Of a DNA stretch of 36,718 nucleotides, positions 6,825 to 36,718 are shown in pieces. This DNA comes from Patescibacteria group bacterium (GTDB taxonomy: Bacteria > Patescibacteriota > Minisyncoccia > Phycocordibacterales > UBA9973): the NCBI GenBank assembly GCA_038063915.1, contig JBBTUE010000004.1, positions 1 through 36,718 on the forward strand, written 5' to 3'. The notes below the pieces were generated by a model that worked only from the letters and a program-made list of their open reading frames with translations, did no database searches and was not told the DNA's origin. The first letter of the stretch is position 1. Each line of letters starts with the position of its first letter. The position numbers and the translations under genes are program-made.

Positions 6825-7190
6825 ATGCCAACAAAAGAATTAAAAACTAAAAAGAAATCAGTAAAGAAAGTAAAAGAAGATGTAGTTGTCCAATTACGCA
6901 TTCGTGTGAGAGCTTATGAGAATAAGATCCTAGACGCGTCCGTAAAACAAATCATAGACACTGCTCTTCGCTATGACGCTAAAATTGTCGGGCCAATTCC
7001 ACTTCCAACTGAAATTAAGAAATATACAGTTAACCGAGCATCGTTTGTGTTTAAAAATGCTCGAGAACAATTCGAAATCAGAATTCACAAGCGTGTTATC
7101 GATATCTTAAATCCTAATGCGAAGACTATCGAAGCGCTTACGAATCTATCTCTTCCATCCGGAGTTGATATAGATGTGAAGATGATGTAA
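6825..7190 (+). CDS. rpsJ: 30S ribosomal protein S10 with Lys-rich N-terminal extension
   Basis: LRIRVRAYE, GPIPLPT, REQFEIRIHKRVIDI, LPSGVDI. Confidence 0.98.
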   Translation: MPTKELKTKKKSVKKVKEDVVVQLRIRVRAYENKILDASVKQIIDTALRYDAKIVGPIPLPTEIKKYTVNRASFVFKNAREQFEIRIHKRVIDILNPNAKTIEALTNLSLPSGVDIDVKMM

Positions 7191-7202
7191 TAATCAAAAT
7201 TT

Positions 7203-7841
7203 ATGAAATTTATCCTTGGTAAAAAACAGCATATGATGCAGTGCTTTGATGATGATGGGAAAGTCATCCCTGCGACAGTAGTAGAGGCGGGTCCACTCGT
7301 AGTTACTCAAGTCAAAAATCCAGACACAGATGGCTATACTGCTATTCAGGTGGCCTTTTTAGAGCAAAAGAAAAGCCGTGCTACAAAAGCGCACCTTGGC
7401 CATGTCCTACCTGCACAAGCAAGTAAGGATGGGGGAGTTGTAGAGGCAGGAGCGTTCAAGCATCTGCGCGAATTTCGAGATATCGAAGAAATATCTGTAG
7501 GTGATCGGATTACTGTCGACTCTTTTTCAAAAGGTGATATAGTCACAGTTTCAGGACTTTCAAAAGGTAAAGGATTCCAAGGAGTTGTCAAACGTCATGG
7601 TTTCCACGGAGGTCCTCGCTCTCACGGTCAAAAACACTCAGAACGCGAACCAGGTTCGATAGGTGGAGGACTTCGCAATAAAGTTCCAAAAGGCATGCGC
7701 ATGGCTGGCCGTACAGGAGGCGACCGCATTACTGTTCGGAATTTGGAAATTATTGGCATAGATAAAGAGAATAATCAGTTACTCGTAAAAGGAGCTATTC
7801 CAGGACGACGTGGAACTCTTGTGGAAATTATTGGACTATAA
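7203..7841 (+). CDS. rplC: 50S ribosomal protein L3
   Basis: ILGKK..M, DGYTAIQV, SKGKGFQGVVKRHGF, PGSIG, KGMRMAGR. Confidence 0.98.
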   Translation: MKFILGKKQHMMQCFDDDGKVIPATVVEAGPLVVTQVKNPDTDGYTAIQVAFLEQKKSRATKAHLGHVLPAQASKDGGVVEAGAFKHLREFRDIEEISVGDRITVDSFSKGDIVTVSGLSKGKGFQGVVKRHGFHGGPRSHGQKHSEREPGSIGGGLRNKVPKGMRMAGRTGGDRITVRNLEIIGIDKENNQLLVKGAIPGRRGTLVEIIGL

Positions 7842-26466: not shown

Positions 26467-28215
26467 ATGGAAACAAGGAACTGCCAGAACTGCAAAAAAG
26501 ACTTCAATATTGAACCTAATGATTTTTCATTTTATGAGAAGATAAAAGTACCTCCGCCGACATTTTGCTGGCGTTGCCGGGCAATACGAAGAATGGCTTT
26601 CAGAAATATGCGCCATTTATATGCACGTACTTGCGATGCAACAGGTGAAAAAATATTTACATTTATTCCACCTGGTAATCCTATGCCAGTATATAGTAAT
26701 GAATATTGGAATAGTGATGCATGGGATCCAATGGATTACGGTAAAGAGTATGATTTCTCTAGACCTTTTTTTGAGCAAATTCGAGATTTATATAATAGTG
26801 TACCGTGGGGAATTATGTGGTCTATGGAAATGAAAAATTGTGATTATTGTGCATGCGCTTACTCAAAAAACTGCTACCTGTGTTTTGATTCAGGTTATGA
26901 TGAAGATAGTGCATATAATGTTACTTTGCTTTATAGTAAGCAATCTTTTGACTGTTTAAATGTAAAAGATGGCGAACTCTGCTATTACTGTATAAATACA
27001 AACCAATCTTATAAAACATATTTTTCTCGAAATTGTACTTCCTGTATAGAAGTTTGGTTTTCCCAAGATTGCATTGGTTGTACCAGTTGTTTTGGTTGCA
27101 GTGGGCTTAGGAATAAAAAATACTATATTTTTAATAAGCCTTATGATAAGTCAACCTACGAAGCTAAACTCCTCGAAATGAAACTTGACTCTTGGTCAGG
27201 TTTGCAACAGGGGCGTAAACTTTCCGAAGATGTATGGCAAAAATCGCCTGTAAAATATCAGCATAGTGTCCAAGTAACAAATAGTACTGGAGATTATCTT
27301 TATAATGGCACTGAACTCATAAACTGTTTCTTTATGGGAACCGCGAGAAACATGAAGCATTGCCAAAGCATTATTTACCCTCCTAATAATGATGATATGG
27401 ATATAACTTCAAGCGAGGGGACAGAACTTGCATATGAGACGATTTGCTGTGGTAATGGATGTCATAGAGCAATTGGTATGGTAGAGACGGCTAATAGTAG
27501 CGACAGTTATTACTCTATAAATTGTCGCAACGTAGAAAATGTGTTTGGTTGCGTAGCTATACGAAGTAAAAGTCATTGTATTTTAAATAAACAGTATACA
27601 AAAGAAGAATATTTTGAAATGCTCCCAAAGATAAAAAAACACATGGATGAAATGCCATATATTGATAAGAAAGGCCGAATATATAGATTTGCAGATTTCT
27701 TCCCATTCGATATGGCTCCCCACGGATATAGTCAATCACAGGCTTCCGAATATTTCCCTGTTACTGAAGAAGAAGCAAAAGAAAAAAATTATCGCTGGAG
27801 AATACCCGAAGATAGAAAATATACAATAACAATGAAAACGAGTGGAATCCCCGATAGTATTACCGAAGTATCTGACAGTATTCTAGAAGAAGTTATACAA
27901 TGTGAACATGAAGAATCTGGCAACCACTCTTTTGGTTGCGATGTAGATTGCGCAAGTGCCTTCCGCATAACAAGACAAGAACTCGATTTTTATCGTCAAG
28001 CCAAACTACCTCTGCCTAGACTATGCTTCAATTGTAGACATATTGATAGAGTTAAGTGGCGCAACGTTCCAGCTTTATATCATAGACAATGCATGTGTGA
28101 AAATAAAGATCATAACCACGCCAGTAAATGTCCTACTGAGTTTGAAACAACATACGCTCCCAACCAACCCGAGATTATTTATTGCGAATCGTGCTACCAA
28201 CAAGAAGTTGTATAA
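26467..28215 (+). CDS. Second Cys-rich paralog
   Basis: Same N- and C-terminal motifs as 24720-26459; start METRNCQNC at 26467. Confidence 0.85.
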   Translation: METRNCQNCKKDFNIEPNDFSFYEKIKVPPPTFCWRCRAIRRMAFRNMRHLYARTCDATGEKIFTFIPPGNPMPVYSNEYWNSDAWDPMDYGKEYDFSRPFFEQIRDLYNSVPWGIMWSMEMKNCDYCACAYSKNCYLCFDSGYDEDSAYNVTLLYSKQSFDCLNVKDGELCYYCINTNQSYKTYFSRNCTSCIEVWFSQDCIGCTSCFGCSGLRNKKYYIFNKPYDKSTYEAKLLEMKLDSWSGLQQGRKLSEDVWQKSPVKYQHSVQVTNSTGDYLYNGTELINCFFMGTARNMKHCQSIIYPPNNDDMDITSSEGTELAYETICCGNGCHRAIGMVETANSSDSYYSINCRNVENVFGCVAIRSKSHCILNKQYTKEEYFEMLPKIKKHMDEMPYIDKKGRIYRFADFFPFDMAPHGYSQSQASEYFPVTEEEAKEKNYRWRIPEDRKYTITMKTSGIPDSITEVSDSILEEVIQCEHEESGNHSFGCDVDCASAFRITRQELDFYRQAKLPLPRLCFNCRHIDRVKWRNVPALYHRQCMCENKDHNHASKCPTEFETTYAPNQPEIIYCESCYQQEVV

Positions 28216-33942: not shown

Positions 33943-33971
33943 TTGCAAAATAGGCAATTTTTTGCTAGTAT
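33943..33971 (+). promoter_or_regulatory. Promoter for the second kinase
   Basis: TTGCAA-17 nt-TAGTAT with TGc. Confidence 0.6.
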
Positions 33972-34020
33972 ATACCCAGAATTACTTATTATTCATTATG
34001 CGCTCTGCGCAATTTTTATT

Positions 34021-35103
34021 ATGAAAGGACCATTAACTGAGTTCCCAATTATCAAGACAAAAGTTCCGAATCTTACCAAAAAGTTCGACCTTACTGATCC
34101 AGAACAACGGAAGGAGTATTTTGAGTCAAAAGTTGGCACTGAAATTAATAAGCTGAAAGAGTATTTAAAAGATAATACATTTATTGCTTACCTTCTTGGG
34201 AAGAAAAATTCTGGTAAGGGTACCTATACAAAGCTCATGGCAGAAATTTTCGGAGCAGATAAGATTGGTCATATTTCCGTTGGTGACCTCGTCCGTACGA
34301 CATATAAAGATATAGACAATCCAGAAAAAAAGAAAGAAATTGTGGAATACTTGGAGCAACACTATCGTGGATACATATCAATTGAAGATGCGATTGATGC
34401 TTTGGTTGGGAAAAATCAGAAAGTTTTGTTGCCGACCGAATTTATTCTAGCGCTCGTAAAAAGAGAAATTGATAAGATGGGAAGAAAAGTCATTTTTATA
34501 GATGGTTTCCCTCGCGATCTTGACCAAGTGCAGTATTCGCTTTATTTTAGAGATTTAGTGAACTACCGCCTTGACCCGGATATTTTCGTAGCCATCAATA
34601 TTCCAGAATCAGTACTCGATGAGCGAATGCGAAGCCGTGTAGTTTGCCCTATATGTCAGGCACCGAGAAGTTTAAGTGTTTTCCCTACAAAAAAGGTAGG
34701 CTTCGACAAAGAGACAAAGGAATACTTCCTTATTTGTGACAATCCGGAATGTAATGGTGCAAGAATGATTGGCAAAGAAGGAGATACTGCCGGGATTGAG
34801 AGTATTCGTGAACGCCTAGATTTGGATGATAAACTAGCTAAGAAAGTAATGTCTTTACATGGAATTCCTAAAGTTCTCCTTAGAAATGCTGTACCTATTG
34901 ATAGTCTCAAAAATGATCTTGTAGATGACTACGAGGTAACTCCTGGTTATAAATTTAAATATAATGAAGAAACCGATGAAGTAGCTATTACCGAAGAACC
35001 GTGGATCATCAAAGATGACCAAGGTAATGATTCATATAGCTTACTTGCCCCTGTGGTTGTAGTTGCACTAATAAAGCAGTTAACACAAGCTCTTGATTTG
35101 TAA
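34021..35103 (+). CDS. Long adenylate kinase-like protein with a Zn-binding LID and extensions
   Basis: GKKNSGKGT, HISVGDLVR, IDGFPR...Q, R.VCPIC...ICDNPEC; ATG at 34021. Confidence 0.85.
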   Translation: MKGPLTEFPIIKTKVPNLTKKFDLTDPEQRKEYFESKVGTEINKLKEYLKDNTFIAYLLGKKNSGKGTYTKLMAEIFGADKIGHISVGDLVRTTYKDIDNPEKKKEIVEYLEQHYRGYISIEDAIDALVGKNQKVLLPTEFILALVKREIDKMGRKVIFIDGFPRDLDQVQYSLYFRDLVNYRLDPDIFVAINIPESVLDERMRSRVVCPICQAPRSLSVFPTKKVGFDKETKEYFLICDNPECNGARMIGKEGDTAGIESIRERLDLDDKLAKKVMSLHGIPKVLLRNAVPIDSLKNDLVDDYEVTPGYKFKYNEETDEVAITEEPWIIKDDQGNDSYSLLAPVVVVALIKQLTQALDL

Positions 35104-35109
35104 AAACCG

Positions 35110-35135
35110 ATAAAATCCCCGAAAGGGGGTTTTAT
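35110..35135. terminator. Bidirectional terminator
   Basis: ATAAAATCCCC-GAAA-GGGGGTTTTAT between convergent genes; nearly the same as the hairpin at 18742. Confidence 0.85.
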
Positions 35136-35136
35136 G

Positions 35137-35580
35137 CTATAGGTTCTCTTTTATTATTCTACAAACTTCTTTTAGTTCGTCTTCAGGAGTTGCTTCTCGA
35201 CTAGCTGGTCTATATAAGAACTTCCGAGGATCATATCCCAAGGTTCCTTGGTCTCCTACTTTTCTAGGTACTACATGTAAGTGAAAATGTGGTACAGACT
35301 GACCTGCTATTTCATTCTCATTCCATGCATAATTGAATCCTTCGGCATCAAATGTTTTCCTCAAGGCGTTTATAATATGAACTCGCAATTTTTCTAGAGA
35401 ACTTTTTTCTTCGATTGTTAGGTTTTCATATTTTAATACGCAACGCCTCGATGTGATAATTATATGACCAGGGACGATGGGGATATTGGTAGGGAATGCC
35501 CAAGCTAAATCGTCCCCAGATATCTCACGTTCTCTAATGTCTGGTTTTGTGCAAAACACACATACTTCTTTTTCTGTCAT
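35137..35580 (-). CDS. HIT family nucleotide hydrolase
   Basis: CVFC, PIVPGH, AGQSVPHFHLHVVPR histidine triad. Confidence 0.95.
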   Translation of the reverse strand: MTEKEVCVFCTKPDIREREISGDDLAWAFPTNIPIVPGHIIITSRRCVLKYENLTIEEKSSLEKLRVHIINALRKTFDAEGFNYAWNENEIAGQSVPHFHLHVVPRKVGDQGTLGYDPRKFLYRPASREATPEDELKEVCRIIKENL

Positions 35581-35685
35581 ATCTAAGACTATAGCATATT
35601 ATTTGCAAAATTTTTAAAATTTTGAAATTTAAACTCTAAATCTAACTTGAAAGAGTGTCAAAAGTGTGTTTTATTGAGAAAATAC

Positions 35686-35713
35686 TTGCAGACTCTTCTT
35701 GTAATTGTATACT
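35686..35713 (+). promoter_or_regulatory. Promoter of the intergenic RNA
   Basis: TTGCAG-16 nt-TATACT, placing +1 at about 35719-35720, the first base of the terminal stem. Confidence 0.65.
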
Positions 35714-35718
35714 GTAAG

Positions 35719-35869
35719 TAGGGTTATTTGATTTGTATTACCTAGATCATATTTTATAGGGGATAGAGAGTTTTGATGCAGTGCTGTAACAAAATTATTG
35801 TCAACAAATCTGTATCATCCCCAATCCCACTTAGCGTAACGCTATGGTAATATCCTTCAAATAGTCCTA
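35719..35869 (+). ncRNA. Free-standing structured RNA, 6S RNA-like (rod with central bubble)
   Basis: End-to-end pairing TAGGGTTATTTGA/TCAAATAGTCCTA and TATTACC/GGTAATA; unpaired bubble 35746-35758 / 35823-35841; then GGGGA/TCCCC and TGATGCAG/CTGTATCA. Has its own promoter and a terminator-like hairpin. Confidence 0.6.
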
Positions 35870-35875
35870 ACAAGC

Positions 35876-35906
35876 AATTCTCTTCATTTTTGGGAGGATT
35901 TTTTGT
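35876..35906 (+). terminator. Terminator-like hairpin after the RNA
   Basis: AATTCTCTTC...GGGAGGATT stem with G-U pairs, then TTTTGTT. Confidence 0.55.
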
Positions 35907-35931
35907 TATTATAGGGTATAATAGAGCCCAT

Positions 35932-36718
35932 ATGGTAAATGACACAAATTTTAAGGTCACGTTTTGCTCTGGAGCCGGAATAGTGACCGGTTCTAACTTC
36001 TTGATTGAGTGTAATGGTAAGAAATTCTTGGTGGATTGCGGGCTAATTCAGGGTGAGAAAGTAGCCGAAGATTTAAACTGGACCAAATTCCCTTACGACG
36101 TTAGCCAGATAGATATACTTTTTATAACCCATGGGCATATTGATCACATAGGTCGTATTCCGAAGCTAATAAGTGAAGGTTTTAAGGGCAGAATAATATC
36201 AACGATTCCTACAAAAGAGATAGCTGAAGTTATGCTTGCCGATACTAATCACTTGCTTTCTCGTGACACTGACCACGGATTAGAAAAAATATACAACGAA
36301 GAAAACACCAAACAAGCCCTAAGTATGTGGGATACGTTAGAGTATCATCAAGTACTCAATGTCGACCACGGGTTTCAATTTTCATATAAAGACGCTGGGC
36401 ATATACTGGGTTCAGGAATGCTTGAGATAATATACAACGGCAAAAAAATAGTGTTCACTGGCGACCTCGGTAATTCTCCATCTCCTCTCCTACCAGATAC
36501 AGAGATTATAAATGATGCCGATTACCTGATAATGGAATCTGTTTACGGCGATCGTAATCATGAAGATAGAGAAGAAAGAAAGCAGAAGCTTGCTCAAGTA
36601 ATTCAAGATAATTATAAACGCAATGGTACACTTATAATACCCACATTTTCTCTTGAGCGTACACAAGATTTACTATATGAGATAGATTCTCTCGTAGAAG
36701 GTGAGCGTATTCCAAAGA
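35932..36718 (+). CDS. MBL-fold / beta-CASP ribonuclease-like hydrolase (partial, runs off the window)
   Basis: Not in the ORF track. Reads MVNDTNFKVTFCSGAGIVTGSNFL...LVDCGLIQG...ITHGHIDHIGRIP...DAGHILGS...FTGDLG...MESVYGDR...IPTFSLERTQ. Confidence 0.92.
   Translation, partial: MVNDTNFKVTFCSGAGIVTGSNFLIECNGKKFLVDCGLIQGEKVAEDLNWTKFPYDVSQIDILFITHGHIDHIGRIPKLISEGFKGRIISTIPTKEIAEVMLADTNHLLSRDTDHGLEKIYNEENTKQALSMWDTLEYHQVLNVDHGFQFSYKDAGHILGSGMLEIIYNGKKIVFTGDLGNSPSPLLPDTEIINDADYLIMESVYGDRNHEDREERKQKLAQVIQDNYKRNGTLIIPTFSLERTQDLLYEIDSLVEGERIPK

What the first reader, a model, noticed from the sequence alone, without database searches (positions are those of the whole stretch)
35686..35906. Unannotated free-standing ~150-nt RNA gene with 6S-like architecture
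Seen: the 350-bp gap between the divergent HIT and MBL genes holds a complete non-coding transcription unit. The promoter TTGCAG-16-TATACT puts +1 on the first base of a 13-bp terminal stem (35719-35731/35857-35869). A second stem (35736-35745/35842-35852) is followed by a large asymmetric bubble (13 nt/19 nt); its 3' strand can alternatively fold TAGCG-TAA-CGCTA. An apical arm (GGGGA/TCCCC, TGATGCAG/CTGTATCA) and a terminator-like hairpin complete it. The MBL gene has its own TATAAT at 35917, so this is probably not its 5' UTR. Established: 6S RNA is a long irregular rod with a central bubble that mimics an open promoter and binds sigma70 holoenzyme. Inference: this is a compact, sequence-divergent CPR 6S RNA or a new RNA class, implying RNA-level control of RNA polymerase in a reduced genome.
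Basis: partly seen in the sequence, partly recalled or inferred. Interest (0 to 1): 0.85.

Follow-up and report, generated by a model that had tools for sequence, protein, structure and literature searches.

The report
Divergent 6S RNA gene in Parcubacteria
The gap between the HIT and MBL genes holds a real small-RNA gene with its own promoter and terminator, and it is most likely this tiny bacterium's 6S RNA, a known regulator of RNA polymerase, too diverged for the standard database model to recognise.

Summary
Window 35719-35869 (+) folds into a ~151-nt rod (z -4.8), preceded by a TATACT -10 box and followed by a terminator hairpin.

It is conserved from the -10 box to the terminator in 35 of 36 same-genus genomes. 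A covariance model built without the window's genus finds about one copy per genome in 130 of 151 genomes of the order. That model scores the window RNA at 97.5 bits. The stems covary: 30 of 38 pairs show compensatory changes, and 0 of 500 shuffles reach this.

Rfam's 6S model does not hit the window itself. The link to 6S is a chain:
- Sub-threshold Rfam 6S hits in the order fall on this family.
- The family model hits all 7 RNAs of the same phylum that pass Rfam's 6S cut-off.
- A model built only from Rfam-detected 6S RNAs of the phylum hits 12 of 19 order members at E<=0.01, and E. coli ssrS.

The rivals (SRP RNA, antisense ORF, leader of the MBL gene) are weak. Expression, polymerase binding and product RNAs are untested.

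Verdict: a new, unannotated member of a known kind. Moderate interest.

The parts
35686..35691 (+). -35-like hexamer TTGCAG
   Evidence: Read. It matches only 3 of 6 to TTGACA and was not listed by the scan. A TTG-type -35 at 16-19 nt spacing was found at 20 of 30 loci of the order by my script.
35708..35713 (+). -10 box TATACT
   Evidence: TATAnT is invariant in 30 of 30 genus sequences (A1). A TAnnnT lies 3-9 nt upstream of the stem at 28 of 30 order loci. BLAST conservation in the genus starts here, at query position 22 = 35707.
35719..35869 (+). 6S-like RNA body, ~151 nt (covariance-model match 35717-35872)
   Evidence: Fold z = -4.82. R1 scores 164 bits. R2, built without this genus, scores 97.5 bits, E 2.4e-21.
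35719..35731 (+). closing stem, 5' strand (pairs with 35857-35869)
   Evidence: Across the order, 11 of 12 pairs show compensatory changes. On the structure-blind MAFFT alignment, 12 of 12 do.
35735..35745 (+). second stem, 5' strand (pairs with 35842-35853, U35845 bulged). It is also the predicted template region for product RNA.
   Evidence: helix 2: 8 of 11 pairs with compensatory change. The template role is inferred by analogy with 6S; it was not tested.
35746..35759 (+). central bubble, 5' strand (AUCAUAUUUUAUAG). C35748 is invariant in the genus.
   Evidence: Unpaired in the R1/R2 structures. It corresponds to the A/U-rich 5' bubble between 'CC' and 'GGGag' of the Rfam 6S consensus, as printed.
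35760..35764 (+). GGGAU, pairs with AUCCC 35824-35828 (the helix above the bubble)
   Evidence: GGG/CCC is invariant in the genus and 27-30 of 30 across the order. It matches GGGag/CCC of the Rfam 6S consensus.
35774..35817 (+). apical arm (35774-35781/35810-35817) with a variable tip (35782-35809)
   Evidence: Compensatory changes at 6 of the 7 pairs of this arm in the genus (columns 80-86/125-131; column pair 79/132 is invariant). Helices 4 and 5 show them at 7 of 7 pairs across the order. Tip length and sequence vary.
35829..35841 (+). central bubble, 3' strand, starting with the invariant AC of UCCCAC
   Evidence: CCCAC is invariant. It aligns with 'CCCACCUgg' of the Rfam 6S consensus.
35832..35844 (+). 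hairpin in the 3' bubble strand (UAGCG-UAA-CGCUA). It competes with the top of the second stem.
   Evidence: Present in the minimum-energy fold. The order-wide equivalent CCUAG/CUAGG is 94.8% paired, with 3 of 6 pairs showing compensatory change. It extends to 35827-35847 when 35735-35748 is blocked.
35876..35904 (+). intrinsic terminator (stem 35876-35886/35891-35900, U tract 35899-35904)
   Evidence: Stem covariation in the genus, e.g. column pair 201/218 is CG in 13 and UA in 13. A hairpin plus U tract follows the RNA at 28 of 30 order loci.
35917..35922 (+). TATAAT 9 nt upstream of the MBL start codon
   Evidence: Read. Its conservation was not examined.
35932..36718 (+). beta-CASP metallo-beta-lactamase-fold ribonuclease gene (runs past the window end; 456 aa in L032)
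   Evidence: Pfam Lactamase_B, Beta-Casp and RMMBL. The closest NCBIfam models are Cas14/aCPSF1-type, not RNase J. It lies downstream on the same strand at 30 of 30 genus loci and 26 of 30 order loci.
35137..35580 (-). HIT-family gene, divergent upstream neighbour
   Evidence: Pfam HIT. It was found next to the RNA only in the window's own genome among the 30 genus loci.

Best explanation
This is the 6S RNA gene (ssrS) of a Paceibacteria/Parcubacteria bacterium. It is transcribed from its own sigma70-type promoter, starting at about 35719-35720, and ends at an intrinsic terminator at about 35904. The ~151-nt core forms a rod made of a closing stem, a second stem, a central bubble of about 14 over 13 nt, a GGG/CCC helix and an apical arm.

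By homology with characterised 6S RNAs, the bubble should mimic an open promoter and hold the housekeeping RNA polymerase holoenzyme. When nucleotides become plentiful, the polymerase should copy the 5' bubble strand and second stem (about 35748 down to 35735) into a short product RNA. That copying would unzip the second stem and let the 3' strand snap into the extended hairpin 35827-35847, which would release the enzyme.

Shown here: the gene, its conservation, the structure with covariation, and homology to 6S. Inferred: transcription, polymerase binding, product-RNA synthesis and the rearrangement.
For: 1. A real, conserved transcription unit. BLAST conservation from the -10 box to the terminator in 35 of 36 same-genus genomes. 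A -10 box and a terminator are each present at 28 of 30 loci from different families of the order.

2. Structure. Fold z = -4.82. In the genus, 52 predicted pairs, 16 with compensatory change. In the order, on 30 sequences that exclude the window's genus, 91.4% of cells are paired against 77.5% in shuffles. 30 of 38 pairs have compensatory change, 0 of 500 shuffles reach this, and slid controls give 35-51% paired.

3. A housekeeping-like distribution. R2 matches 130 of 151 genomes of the order (115 of 134 high-quality ones), mostly one per genome.

4. Homology to 6S, by several routes:
- Rfam RF00013 gives sub-threshold hits (20-27 bits) in 5 of 101 order genomes. All five lie on R2 matches on the same strand (R2 scores 40-102 bits; R1).
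- In the phylum, RF00013 hits 22 of 151 genomes at E<=0.01, 7 of them over its cut-off. R2 hits the same place and strand in 21 of 22 (17 at E<=0.01). This includes all 7 over the cut-off (E 4.7e-5 to 0.12; 5 below 0.01).
- R3 was built only from 12 Rfam-detected 6S RNAs of other lineages of the phylum. It hits 12 of 19 order loci at E<=0.01 (15 at E<=0.1; best 48.7 bits). It also hits E. coli ssrS end to end (L067 1984-2167 against the annotated 1984-2166; 17 bits, E 0.015).
- The motifs are shared. The order consensus is UAUCUAG-(A/U-rich)-AGGGAG ... UGCGGRCACCCACCUAG-loop-CUAGGGUAAU. The phylum's Rfam-detected 6S consensus is GAUCCA-(U-rich)-GGGGAG ... UGCGGGCACCCACCUGG-loop-CCAGGGUCAA. The Rfam consensus is 'CCgAaaauuuuuauaauaGGGag ... 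CCCACCUgg..CaGGuUCa'.

5. Rearrangement potential. The 3'-bubble hairpin is conserved and extends when the template strand is blocked.
Against: The window RNA itself is not matched by Rfam RF00013. There was nothing at the gathering score, nothing at E<=10 in 35550-36000, and nothing in the whole genome at E<=10. R3 gave no match at E<=1 at the window RNA. It also gave none at 3 of 19 order loci, and only a partial match (E 0.59) at a fourth. R2 does not hit E. coli ssrS at E<=10. The assignment therefore rests on a chain of homology, and the E-values of my models are rough because calibration was shortened.

No transcript, 5' end or product RNA has been seen. Contigs of two metatranscriptome libraries cover the RNA of relatives but cannot show transcription.

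The RNA sits upstream of the same beta-CASP nuclease gene, on the same strand, at 26 of 30 order loci. A cis-acting leader would show the same pattern.

The core is about 35 nt shorter than the Rfam 6S model (187 positions).
Confidence: 0.8

Rival explanations
1. A cis-acting 5' leader (riboswitch or attenuator) controls the downstream membrane-protein and beta-CASP nuclease genes through its terminator.
For: It is on the same strand and directly upstream of the MBL gene at 30 of 30 genus loci. In the order it is upstream of the small membrane-protein gene at 27 of 30 loci and of the MBL gene at 26 of 30. It ends in a terminator, as many riboswitches do. It has highly conserved unpaired nucleotides.
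Against: The closing stem is a stable 10-13-bp helix, separated by a few nucleotides from the terminator. The terminator sequence differs among the 30 loci while the adjacent strand is conserved. By inspection there is therefore no conserved antiterminator pairing; this was not computed formally.

The family is homologous to 6S RNAs of other classes that lack this gene context. 0 of 22 such loci have the MBL or membrane gene nearby, and 1 has ndk.

In the window, a TATAAT sits between the terminator and the MBL start codon. From memory, E. coli ssrS is also co-oriented and co-transcribed with its downstream gene, so synteny does not argue against 6S.
Confidence: 0.07
2. The RNA descends from 6S but now has a different or added job. 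For example, it may be a dedicated partner, substrate or regulator of the neighbouring beta-CASP ribonuclease rather than a sponge for RNA polymerase.
For: The order-wide linkage to the nuclease gene. The window's genus has diverged so far that neither Rfam 6S nor R3 recognises it. In B. subtilis a beta-CASP RNase, RNase J1, matures 6S-1 and degrades 6S-2 (abstract of PMC10578484).
Against: The parts that define 6S are the most conserved parts. These are the bubble flanks, the GGG/CCC helix and CCCAC followed by the hairpin. The linkage is limited to one order and may be inherited gene order. The nuclease is of the aCPSF1/Cas14 type, not RNase J.
Confidence: 0.1
3. It is the missing SRP (4.5S) RNA, which is also a rod-shaped small RNA with its own promoter and terminator.
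For: No SRP RNA is detectable in this genome (RF00169 and RF01854), in 41 relatives or in 101 genomes of the phylum.
Against: The protein partners are missing too. Pfam SRP_SPB and SRP54 find nothing in the genome. tblastn and phmmer with E. coli Ffh find nothing better than E 0.22, while rplS, trmD and rpsP are found. Loss of ffh and ffs in Parcubacteria is already published (PMC4508563, passages read). The apical tip varies in length and sequence, with no conserved tetraloop.
Confidence: 0.01
4. The region encodes the 68-aa antisense protein (35754-35960, minus strand), and the apparent structure is incidental.
For: The ORF exists in the window.
Against: In the 30 genus sequences the longest stop-free antisense stretch is 24-54 aa, and at most 33 aa in 17 of them. 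Substitutions are compensatory in stems, and indels are not multiples of three.
Confidence: 0.01

Closest known systems
6S RNA (SsrS; Rfam RF00013), e.g. E. coli 6S and B. subtilis 6S-1/6S-2
   Same: A rod with a closing stem, a large central bubble and an apical stem. GGG/CCC closes the bubble on the apical side and CC/GG on the basal side. The 3' bubble strand carries CCCAC followed by a small hairpin. It has its own promoter, occurs about once per genome, and is nearly universal in the lineage. Covariance-model hits link it to Rfam-positive 6S RNAs in both directions.
   Different: The core is about 151 nt (127-184 nt in the order) against a 187-position Rfam model. It is A/U-rich. In the window's genus the motif reads CCCACUUAGC...GCUAUGG instead of CCCACCUGG...CAGG, and the Rfam model gives no hit at all. 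It is followed directly by its own intrinsic terminator. In this order it is embedded in ndk - RNA - membrane protein - beta-CASP RNase. Polymerase binding and product RNAs are untested.
SRP (4.5S) RNA
   Same: A small rod-shaped housekeeping RNA with its own promoter and terminator.
   Different: There is no conserved apical tetraloop or domain IV motif. There is no Rfam SRP match, and no Ffh or FtsY in the genome.
Transcription-terminating riboswitch leaders
   Same: Conserved unpaired nucleotides inside covarying stems, a terminator, and a constant downstream gene within the order.
   Different: No conserved alternative pairing with the terminator was seen by inspection. Homologues outside the order lack the gene context. 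No Rfam riboswitch family matches.
Ms1 RNA of mycobacteria (recalled from memory; its name appears in the abstract of PMC11077062 listed)
   Same: A structured small RNA that associates with RNA polymerase and looks like 6S in outline.
   Different: From memory, Ms1 binds the core enzyme, not the holoenzyme, and is not homologous to 6S. The RNA here shares the 6S sequence motifs. It was not compared with Ms1 by any tool.

Membership tests
6S RNA (Rfam RF00013) | Match to the Rfam 6S covariance model at or above its gathering score (46.4 bits) | tested here: not met
   There is no 6S match in the window at the gathering score. There is none at E<=10 in 35550-36000, and none in the whole genome at E<=10. 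0 of 101 genomes of the order reach the cut-off.
6S RNA (Rfam RF00013) | Homology, direct or through intermediates, to RNAs that do pass the Rfam 6S cut-off | tested here: met
   R2 (the order family without the window's genus) scores the window RNA at 97.5 bits. It hits all 7 over-cut-off 6S RNAs of the phylum at the same place and strand (E 4.7e-5 to 0.12) and 21 of 22 Rfam hits overall. R3 (12 Rfam-detected 6S RNAs of the phylum) hits 12 of 19 order loci at E<=0.01 and E. coli ssrS at E 0.015. R3 does not hit the window RNA directly.
6S RNA (Rfam RF00013) | Rod architecture of closing stem, large central bubble and apical stem, supported by covariation | tested here: met
   91.4% of cells paired, 30 of 38 pairs with compensatory change, 0 of 500 shuffles as high. 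A caveat is that the alignment was fitted to the model. The structure-blind MAFFT alignment recovered only the closing stem, with 12 of 12 pairs compensatory.
6S RNA (Rfam RF00013) | Conserved bubble-flanking sequence (GGGag / CCCACCUgg-hairpin in the Rfam consensus) | tested here: met
   The Rfam consensus is printed. The order consensus is AGGGAG...CACCCACCUAG-loop-CUAGGG. The window has GGGGAU...AUCCCACUUAGC-loop-GCUAUGG.
6S RNA (Rfam RF00013) | Ability of the 3' bubble strand to form a hairpin that competes with the stem below the bubble (the release switch) | tested here: met
   The hairpin is conserved (94.8% paired). It overlaps the top of the second stem and extends to 35827-35847 when 35735-35748 is blocked. 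This is in silico only. That this feature belongs to 6S is recalled from memory.
6S RNA (Rfam RF00013) | An abundant discrete transcript of about 150-200 nt | tested here: inconclusive
   Only assembled contigs of RNA libraries were available. They cover the RNA of relatives (80-95% alike) but cannot show ends, strand or level, and DNA carry-over is possible.
6S RNA (Rfam RF00013) | Binding to the sigma70-type holoenzyme and templating of product RNAs | not testable with these tools
   This needs biochemistry or small-RNA sequencing.
SRP (4.5S) RNA | Match to Rfam SRP models and presence of Ffh | tested here: not met
   RF00169 and RF01854 give no match. SRP_SPB and SRP54 domains are not found. 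E. coli Ffh finds nothing by tblastn or phmmer.
Terminator-type riboswitch / cis leader | Conserved mutually exclusive pairing between the sensor and the terminator | tested here: inconclusive
   By inspection of 30 loci, the terminator stems differ in sequence while the neighbouring strand of the closing stem is conserved. No formal search for antiterminators was run.
Terminator-type riboswitch / cis leader | Constant association with the regulated gene wherever the RNA occurs | tested here: not met
   The association holds inside the order (26-27 of 30). It does not hold at the 22 Rfam-6S loci of other lineages of the phylum that R2 also recognises (0 of 22 with the MBL or membrane gene).

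The most novel reading that the evidence does not exclude
In this order, 6S RNA and the beta-CASP ribonuclease two genes downstream (directly downstream in the window's genus) form a functional module. The nuclease would be the dedicated maturation or turnover enzyme of 6S RNA. Terminator read-through from the 6S gene would tie nuclease synthesis to 6S transcription. An organism that has lost many regulators would then control its RNA polymerase through the synthesis and destruction of a single RNA.
Probability: 0.15. Interest if true: 0.55.

Novelty: new member of a known kind. Interest (0 to 1): 0.35.

Why it matters
6S RNA is a global brake on the housekeeping RNA polymerase. In the searchable library I found no paper that mentions 6S RNA together with CPR, Patescibacteria or Parcubacteria. 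The single co-occurrence with Patescibacteria was unrelated.

Rfam's model misses the whole order: 0 of 101 genomes reach its cut-off. Genome annotations of these bacteria therefore most likely lack the gene.

The RNA is kept about once per genome in 130 of 151 genomes of ~0.4-1.2 Mb. These genomes have shed even the signal recognition particle. That suggests RNA-level control of the polymerase is among the functions that survive extreme genome reduction.

The alignments and models made here could be used to annotate the gene. The conserved neighbourhood with a beta-CASP RNase gives a concrete hypothesis about 6S turnover.

It does not open a new kind of biology.

Tried and rejected
Rfam scans of the window gave nothing useful. 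The gathering mode found no match. The E-value mode on 35550-36000 found only chance microRNA/snoRNA-type matches.

The consensus promoter/terminator scan listed neither element of this unit.

The structure-blind MAFFT alignment of 38 order-wide sequences was too poor inside the rod. RNAalifold recovered only the closing stem. The wider covariation count was therefore made on a model-fitted alignment, which leans towards the model's structure.

R2 against the E. coli ssrS locus gave no match at E<=10. R3 against the window gave no match at the RNA at E<=1.

The phage collection holds no similar DNA.

Sequencing runs. The DNA holders are groundwater and freshwater metagenomes, and three of them may be the source of this DNA. 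Four runs with a 0.04 share of words were laid: X17 and X18, on record as RNA, and X19 and X20, labelled 'RNA? (probably DNA)'. All are contigs. One 2278-nt contig of X18 covers 35720-35881 with 10 differences and continues into the MBL gene across a spacer of different length. This is a relative, it may be DNA carry-over, and it shows no transcript ends. I draw no conclusion on expression or habitat from it.

The SRP-RNA idea was followed and rejected. The antisense ORF was rejected.

Literature:
- Searches for 6S RNA with CPR names found nothing relevant.
- PMC8321541, PMC10768705, PMC11293204 and PMC11740963 were opened only for passages and proved irrelevant.
- 'Dissemination of 6S RNA among bacteria' was not read. 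The phrase occurs in 19 papers. Whether its supplements list CPR sequences I cannot say.
- Supplementary files were not consulted.

Full report
WHAT IS THERE

- TTGCAG (35686-35691), a 16-nt spacer, and TATACT (35708-35713).
- A 13-bp terminal stem, 35719-35731/35857-35869.
- A second stem, 35735-35745/35842-35853, with one bulged U.
- A large internal loop, then a GGGAU/AUCCC helix (35760-35764/35824-35828).
- An apical arm (35774-35781/35810-35817) with a variable tip.
- A hairpin with a U tract (35876-35904).

The plus strand of 35719-35906 folds at -54.1 kcal/mol, z = -4.82, and 0 of 200 shuffles fold as well. The minus strand is weaker at z = -3.20. The simple consensus scan listed neither the promoter nor the terminator, so these two rest on conservation.

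IS IT MORE THAN CHANCE?

BLAST of 35686-35906 against 61 genomes found the element in 35 of 36 other genomes of the same genus. In most of them the match starts at query position 22 (35707, just before the -10 box) and runs through the terminator. In the alignment of 30 copies, TATAnT is invariant. The unpaired segments CCUAGA.CA, AGGGGA, UCCCAC and GCUA.GGUAA are invariant or nearly so. The apical arm and the terminator stem change by compensatory substitutions (52 predicted pairs, 16 with both sides changed).

The conserved partner is AUCCC at 35824-35828.

The 68-aa antisense ORF is not conserved. The longest stop-free antisense stretch in the 30 copies is 24-54 aa.

HOW FAR DOES IT REACH?

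A covariance model of the genus copies (R1) found one full-length match per genome in 35 of 151 genomes of the order.

I built a second model from 30 of those matches, none from the window's genus (R2). R2 scores the window RNA at 97.5 bits (E 2.4e-21). It matches 130 of 151 genomes of the order (115 of 134 high-quality ones), almost always once per genome.

On the 30-sequence alignment, 91.4% of cells pair against 77.5% in shuffles. 30 of 38 pairs show compensatory change, 0 of 500 shuffles reach the observed values, and partners slid by 1-3 columns give 35-51%. That alignment was fitted to the model. The structure-blind MAFFT alignment supported only the closing stem, with 12 of 12 pairs compensatory.

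At 30 loci from different families, a TAnnnT box lies 3-9 nt upstream in 28, and a hairpin with a U tract follows within a few nucleotides in 28. The element is therefore a free-standing small-RNA gene of a housekeeping kind.

WHAT IS IT?

Rfam gave no match in the window at the gathering score. It gave no 6S match at E<=10 around the element or in the whole genome. The link to 6S comes from relatives.

1. In the order, RF00013 gave sub-threshold hits (20-27 bits; cut-off 46.4) in 5 of 101 genomes. All five lie on R2 matches on the same strand. Five chance hits would not all fall on the same ~150-nt gene in genomes of 0.5-0.7 Mb.

2. In the phylum, RF00013 hit 22 of 151 genomes at E<=0.01, 7 of them over its cut-off and up to 73 bits. 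R2 hit the same place and strand in 21 of the 22 loci (17 at E<=0.01). All 7 over the cut-off were hit.

3. A third model, R3, was built only from the 12 best Rfam-detected 6S RNAs of other lineages of the phylum. It hit 12 of 19 order loci at the RNA's place and strand at E<=0.01 (15 at E<=0.1; best 48.7 bits). It also hit the annotated E. coli ssrS almost base for base (L067 1984-2167 against 1984-2166; 17 bits, E 0.015).

4. The shared motifs can be read directly. The Rfam consensus is 'CCgAaaauuuuuauaauaGGGag ... CCCACCUgg..CaGGuUCa'. The phylum's 6S set reads '...GGGGAG ... UGCGGGCACCCACCUGG-loop-CCAGGGUCAA'. The order reads 'UAUCUAG-(A/U-rich)-AGGGAG ... UGCGGRCACCCACCUAG-loop-CUAGGGUAAU'. 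The window reads 'UACCUAGAUCAUAUUUUAUAGGGGAU ... AUCCCACUUAGC-loop-GCUAUGGUAAU'.

Results against this reading: R3 did not reach the window RNA itself, and R2 did not reach E. coli ssrS. The assignment is therefore transitive, and the E-values of my models are rough.

HOW IT MOST LIKELY WORKS

What follows is inferred from what is known of 6S RNAs, recalled from the work of Wassarman, Barrick and Breaker, Hartmann and others, which I did not read here.

The bubble (35746-35759 over 35829-35841), framed by CC/GG below and GGG/CCC above, would sit in the active-site cleft of the housekeeping holoenzyme like an open promoter. At nucleotide upshift the enzyme would copy the 5' strand, probably from the invariant C35748, downwards through the second stem.

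The 3' strand has a built-in alternative. The hairpin 35832-35836/35840-35844 shares its 3' arm (35842-35844) with the top of the second stem. Its order-wide equivalent CCUAG/CUAGG is 94.8% paired, with 3 of 6 pairs showing compensatory change. When 35735-35748 is blocked in silico, the hairpin grows to 35827-35847 and takes two C's out of the GGG/CCC helix. This is the kind of collapse that releases polymerase from known 6S RNAs.

None of this has been observed for this RNA.

CONTEXT

Relatives are titled Candidatus Paceibacterota, Paceibacteria, Nomurabacteria, Vogelbacteria, or Parcubacteria RAAC4_OD1.

Across the order the gene order is ndk - RNA - small membrane protein - beta-CASP RNase, all on one strand. 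Of 30 loci, ndk is upstream in 21, the membrane protein is downstream in 27, and the nuclease is downstream in 26. The membrane protein has no Pfam or NCBIfam family.

In the window's genus the membrane-protein gene is missing and the nuclease gene follows the terminator directly, in 30 of 30 loci.

The nuclease has Lactamase_B, Beta-Casp and RMMBL domains. It is nearest to aCPSF1/Cas14-type models, not RNase J.

Outside the order the linkage is gone. 0 of 22 Rfam-6S loci have the nuclease or membrane gene, and 1 has ndk. This argues against a cis-leader role and for inherited gene order.

A functional link with the nuclease remains possible. In B. subtilis the beta-CASP enzyme RNase J1 matures 6S-1 and degrades 6S-2 (abstract of PMC10578484).

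RIVALS

SRP RNA was considered because no SRP RNA is detectable in the genome, in 41 relatives or in 101 genomes of the phylum. But Ffh and FtsY are missing too (with positive controls). Their loss in Parcubacteria is already in print (PMC4508563, passages read).

Expression could not be settled. Only contigs of RNA libraries were on hand.

NOVELTY

I found no paper in the searchable library that ties 6S RNA to CPR, Patescibacteria or Parcubacteria. The large 6S survey of 2014 was not read.

Since Rfam's model already detects 6S in other lineages of the phylum, this is a new, unannotated and unusually diverged member of a known family, not a new kind of RNA.

SCORES

- The RNA gene is real: about 0.95.
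- It is a 6S homologue working as one: about 0.8.
- Interest: 0.35.

Noticed in passing
whole genome G000 (window = C4:1-36718): No signal recognition particle is detectable. No SRP RNA was found (RF00169, RF01854). No SRP_SPB or SRP54 domain was found. E. coli Ffh gives no tblastn or phmmer hit, while rplS, trmD and rpsP are found. RF00169 also found nothing in 41 relatives or in 101 genomes of the phylum. PF00448 gave only marginal P-loop matches in 81 genomes of the phylum. This loss is already published for Parcubacteria (PMC4508563). My sample suggests it may hold across the phylum.
   Followed up: partly
L062:1503-1652 and L062:1745-1934 (G118); also G067:C5:26913-27039 / 27213-27347 and G180:C10:6910-7044 / 7121-7231: Three genomes of the order carry two 6S-like genes in tandem on the same strand, about 100-200 nt apart. 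In G118 the first copy is the one Rfam's 6S model sees (26.9 bits) and the second is nearer the window type. These may be 6S paralogues, as in Bacillus.
   Followed up: partly
window 35917-35934: The TATAAT before the beta-CASP gene ends only 9 nt before its ATG. The mRNA would be leaderless or nearly so, unless the gene is expressed by read-through of the 6S terminator. Its conservation was not checked.
   Followed up: no
L034:1692-2108 and equivalents in 27 of 30 order loci: A conserved 125-155-aa membrane protein (motif YWYW..WWFD..HFLGG) lies between the RNA and the nuclease gene. It has no Pfam or NCBIfam family. It is missing at this position in the window's genus.
   Followed up: partly
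window 35105-35136: A GC-rich hairpin (CCCC-GAAA-GGGGG) flanked by A and U tracts lies between the convergent 386-aa ORF (33943-35103) and the HIT gene. It looks like a two-way terminator (read; not listed by the scan).
   Followed up: no
L040 (G076:C12), about 1000-1300: A run of masked bases (N) lies just upstream of the RNA in this locus, so its upstream neighbour could not be read.
   Followed up: no
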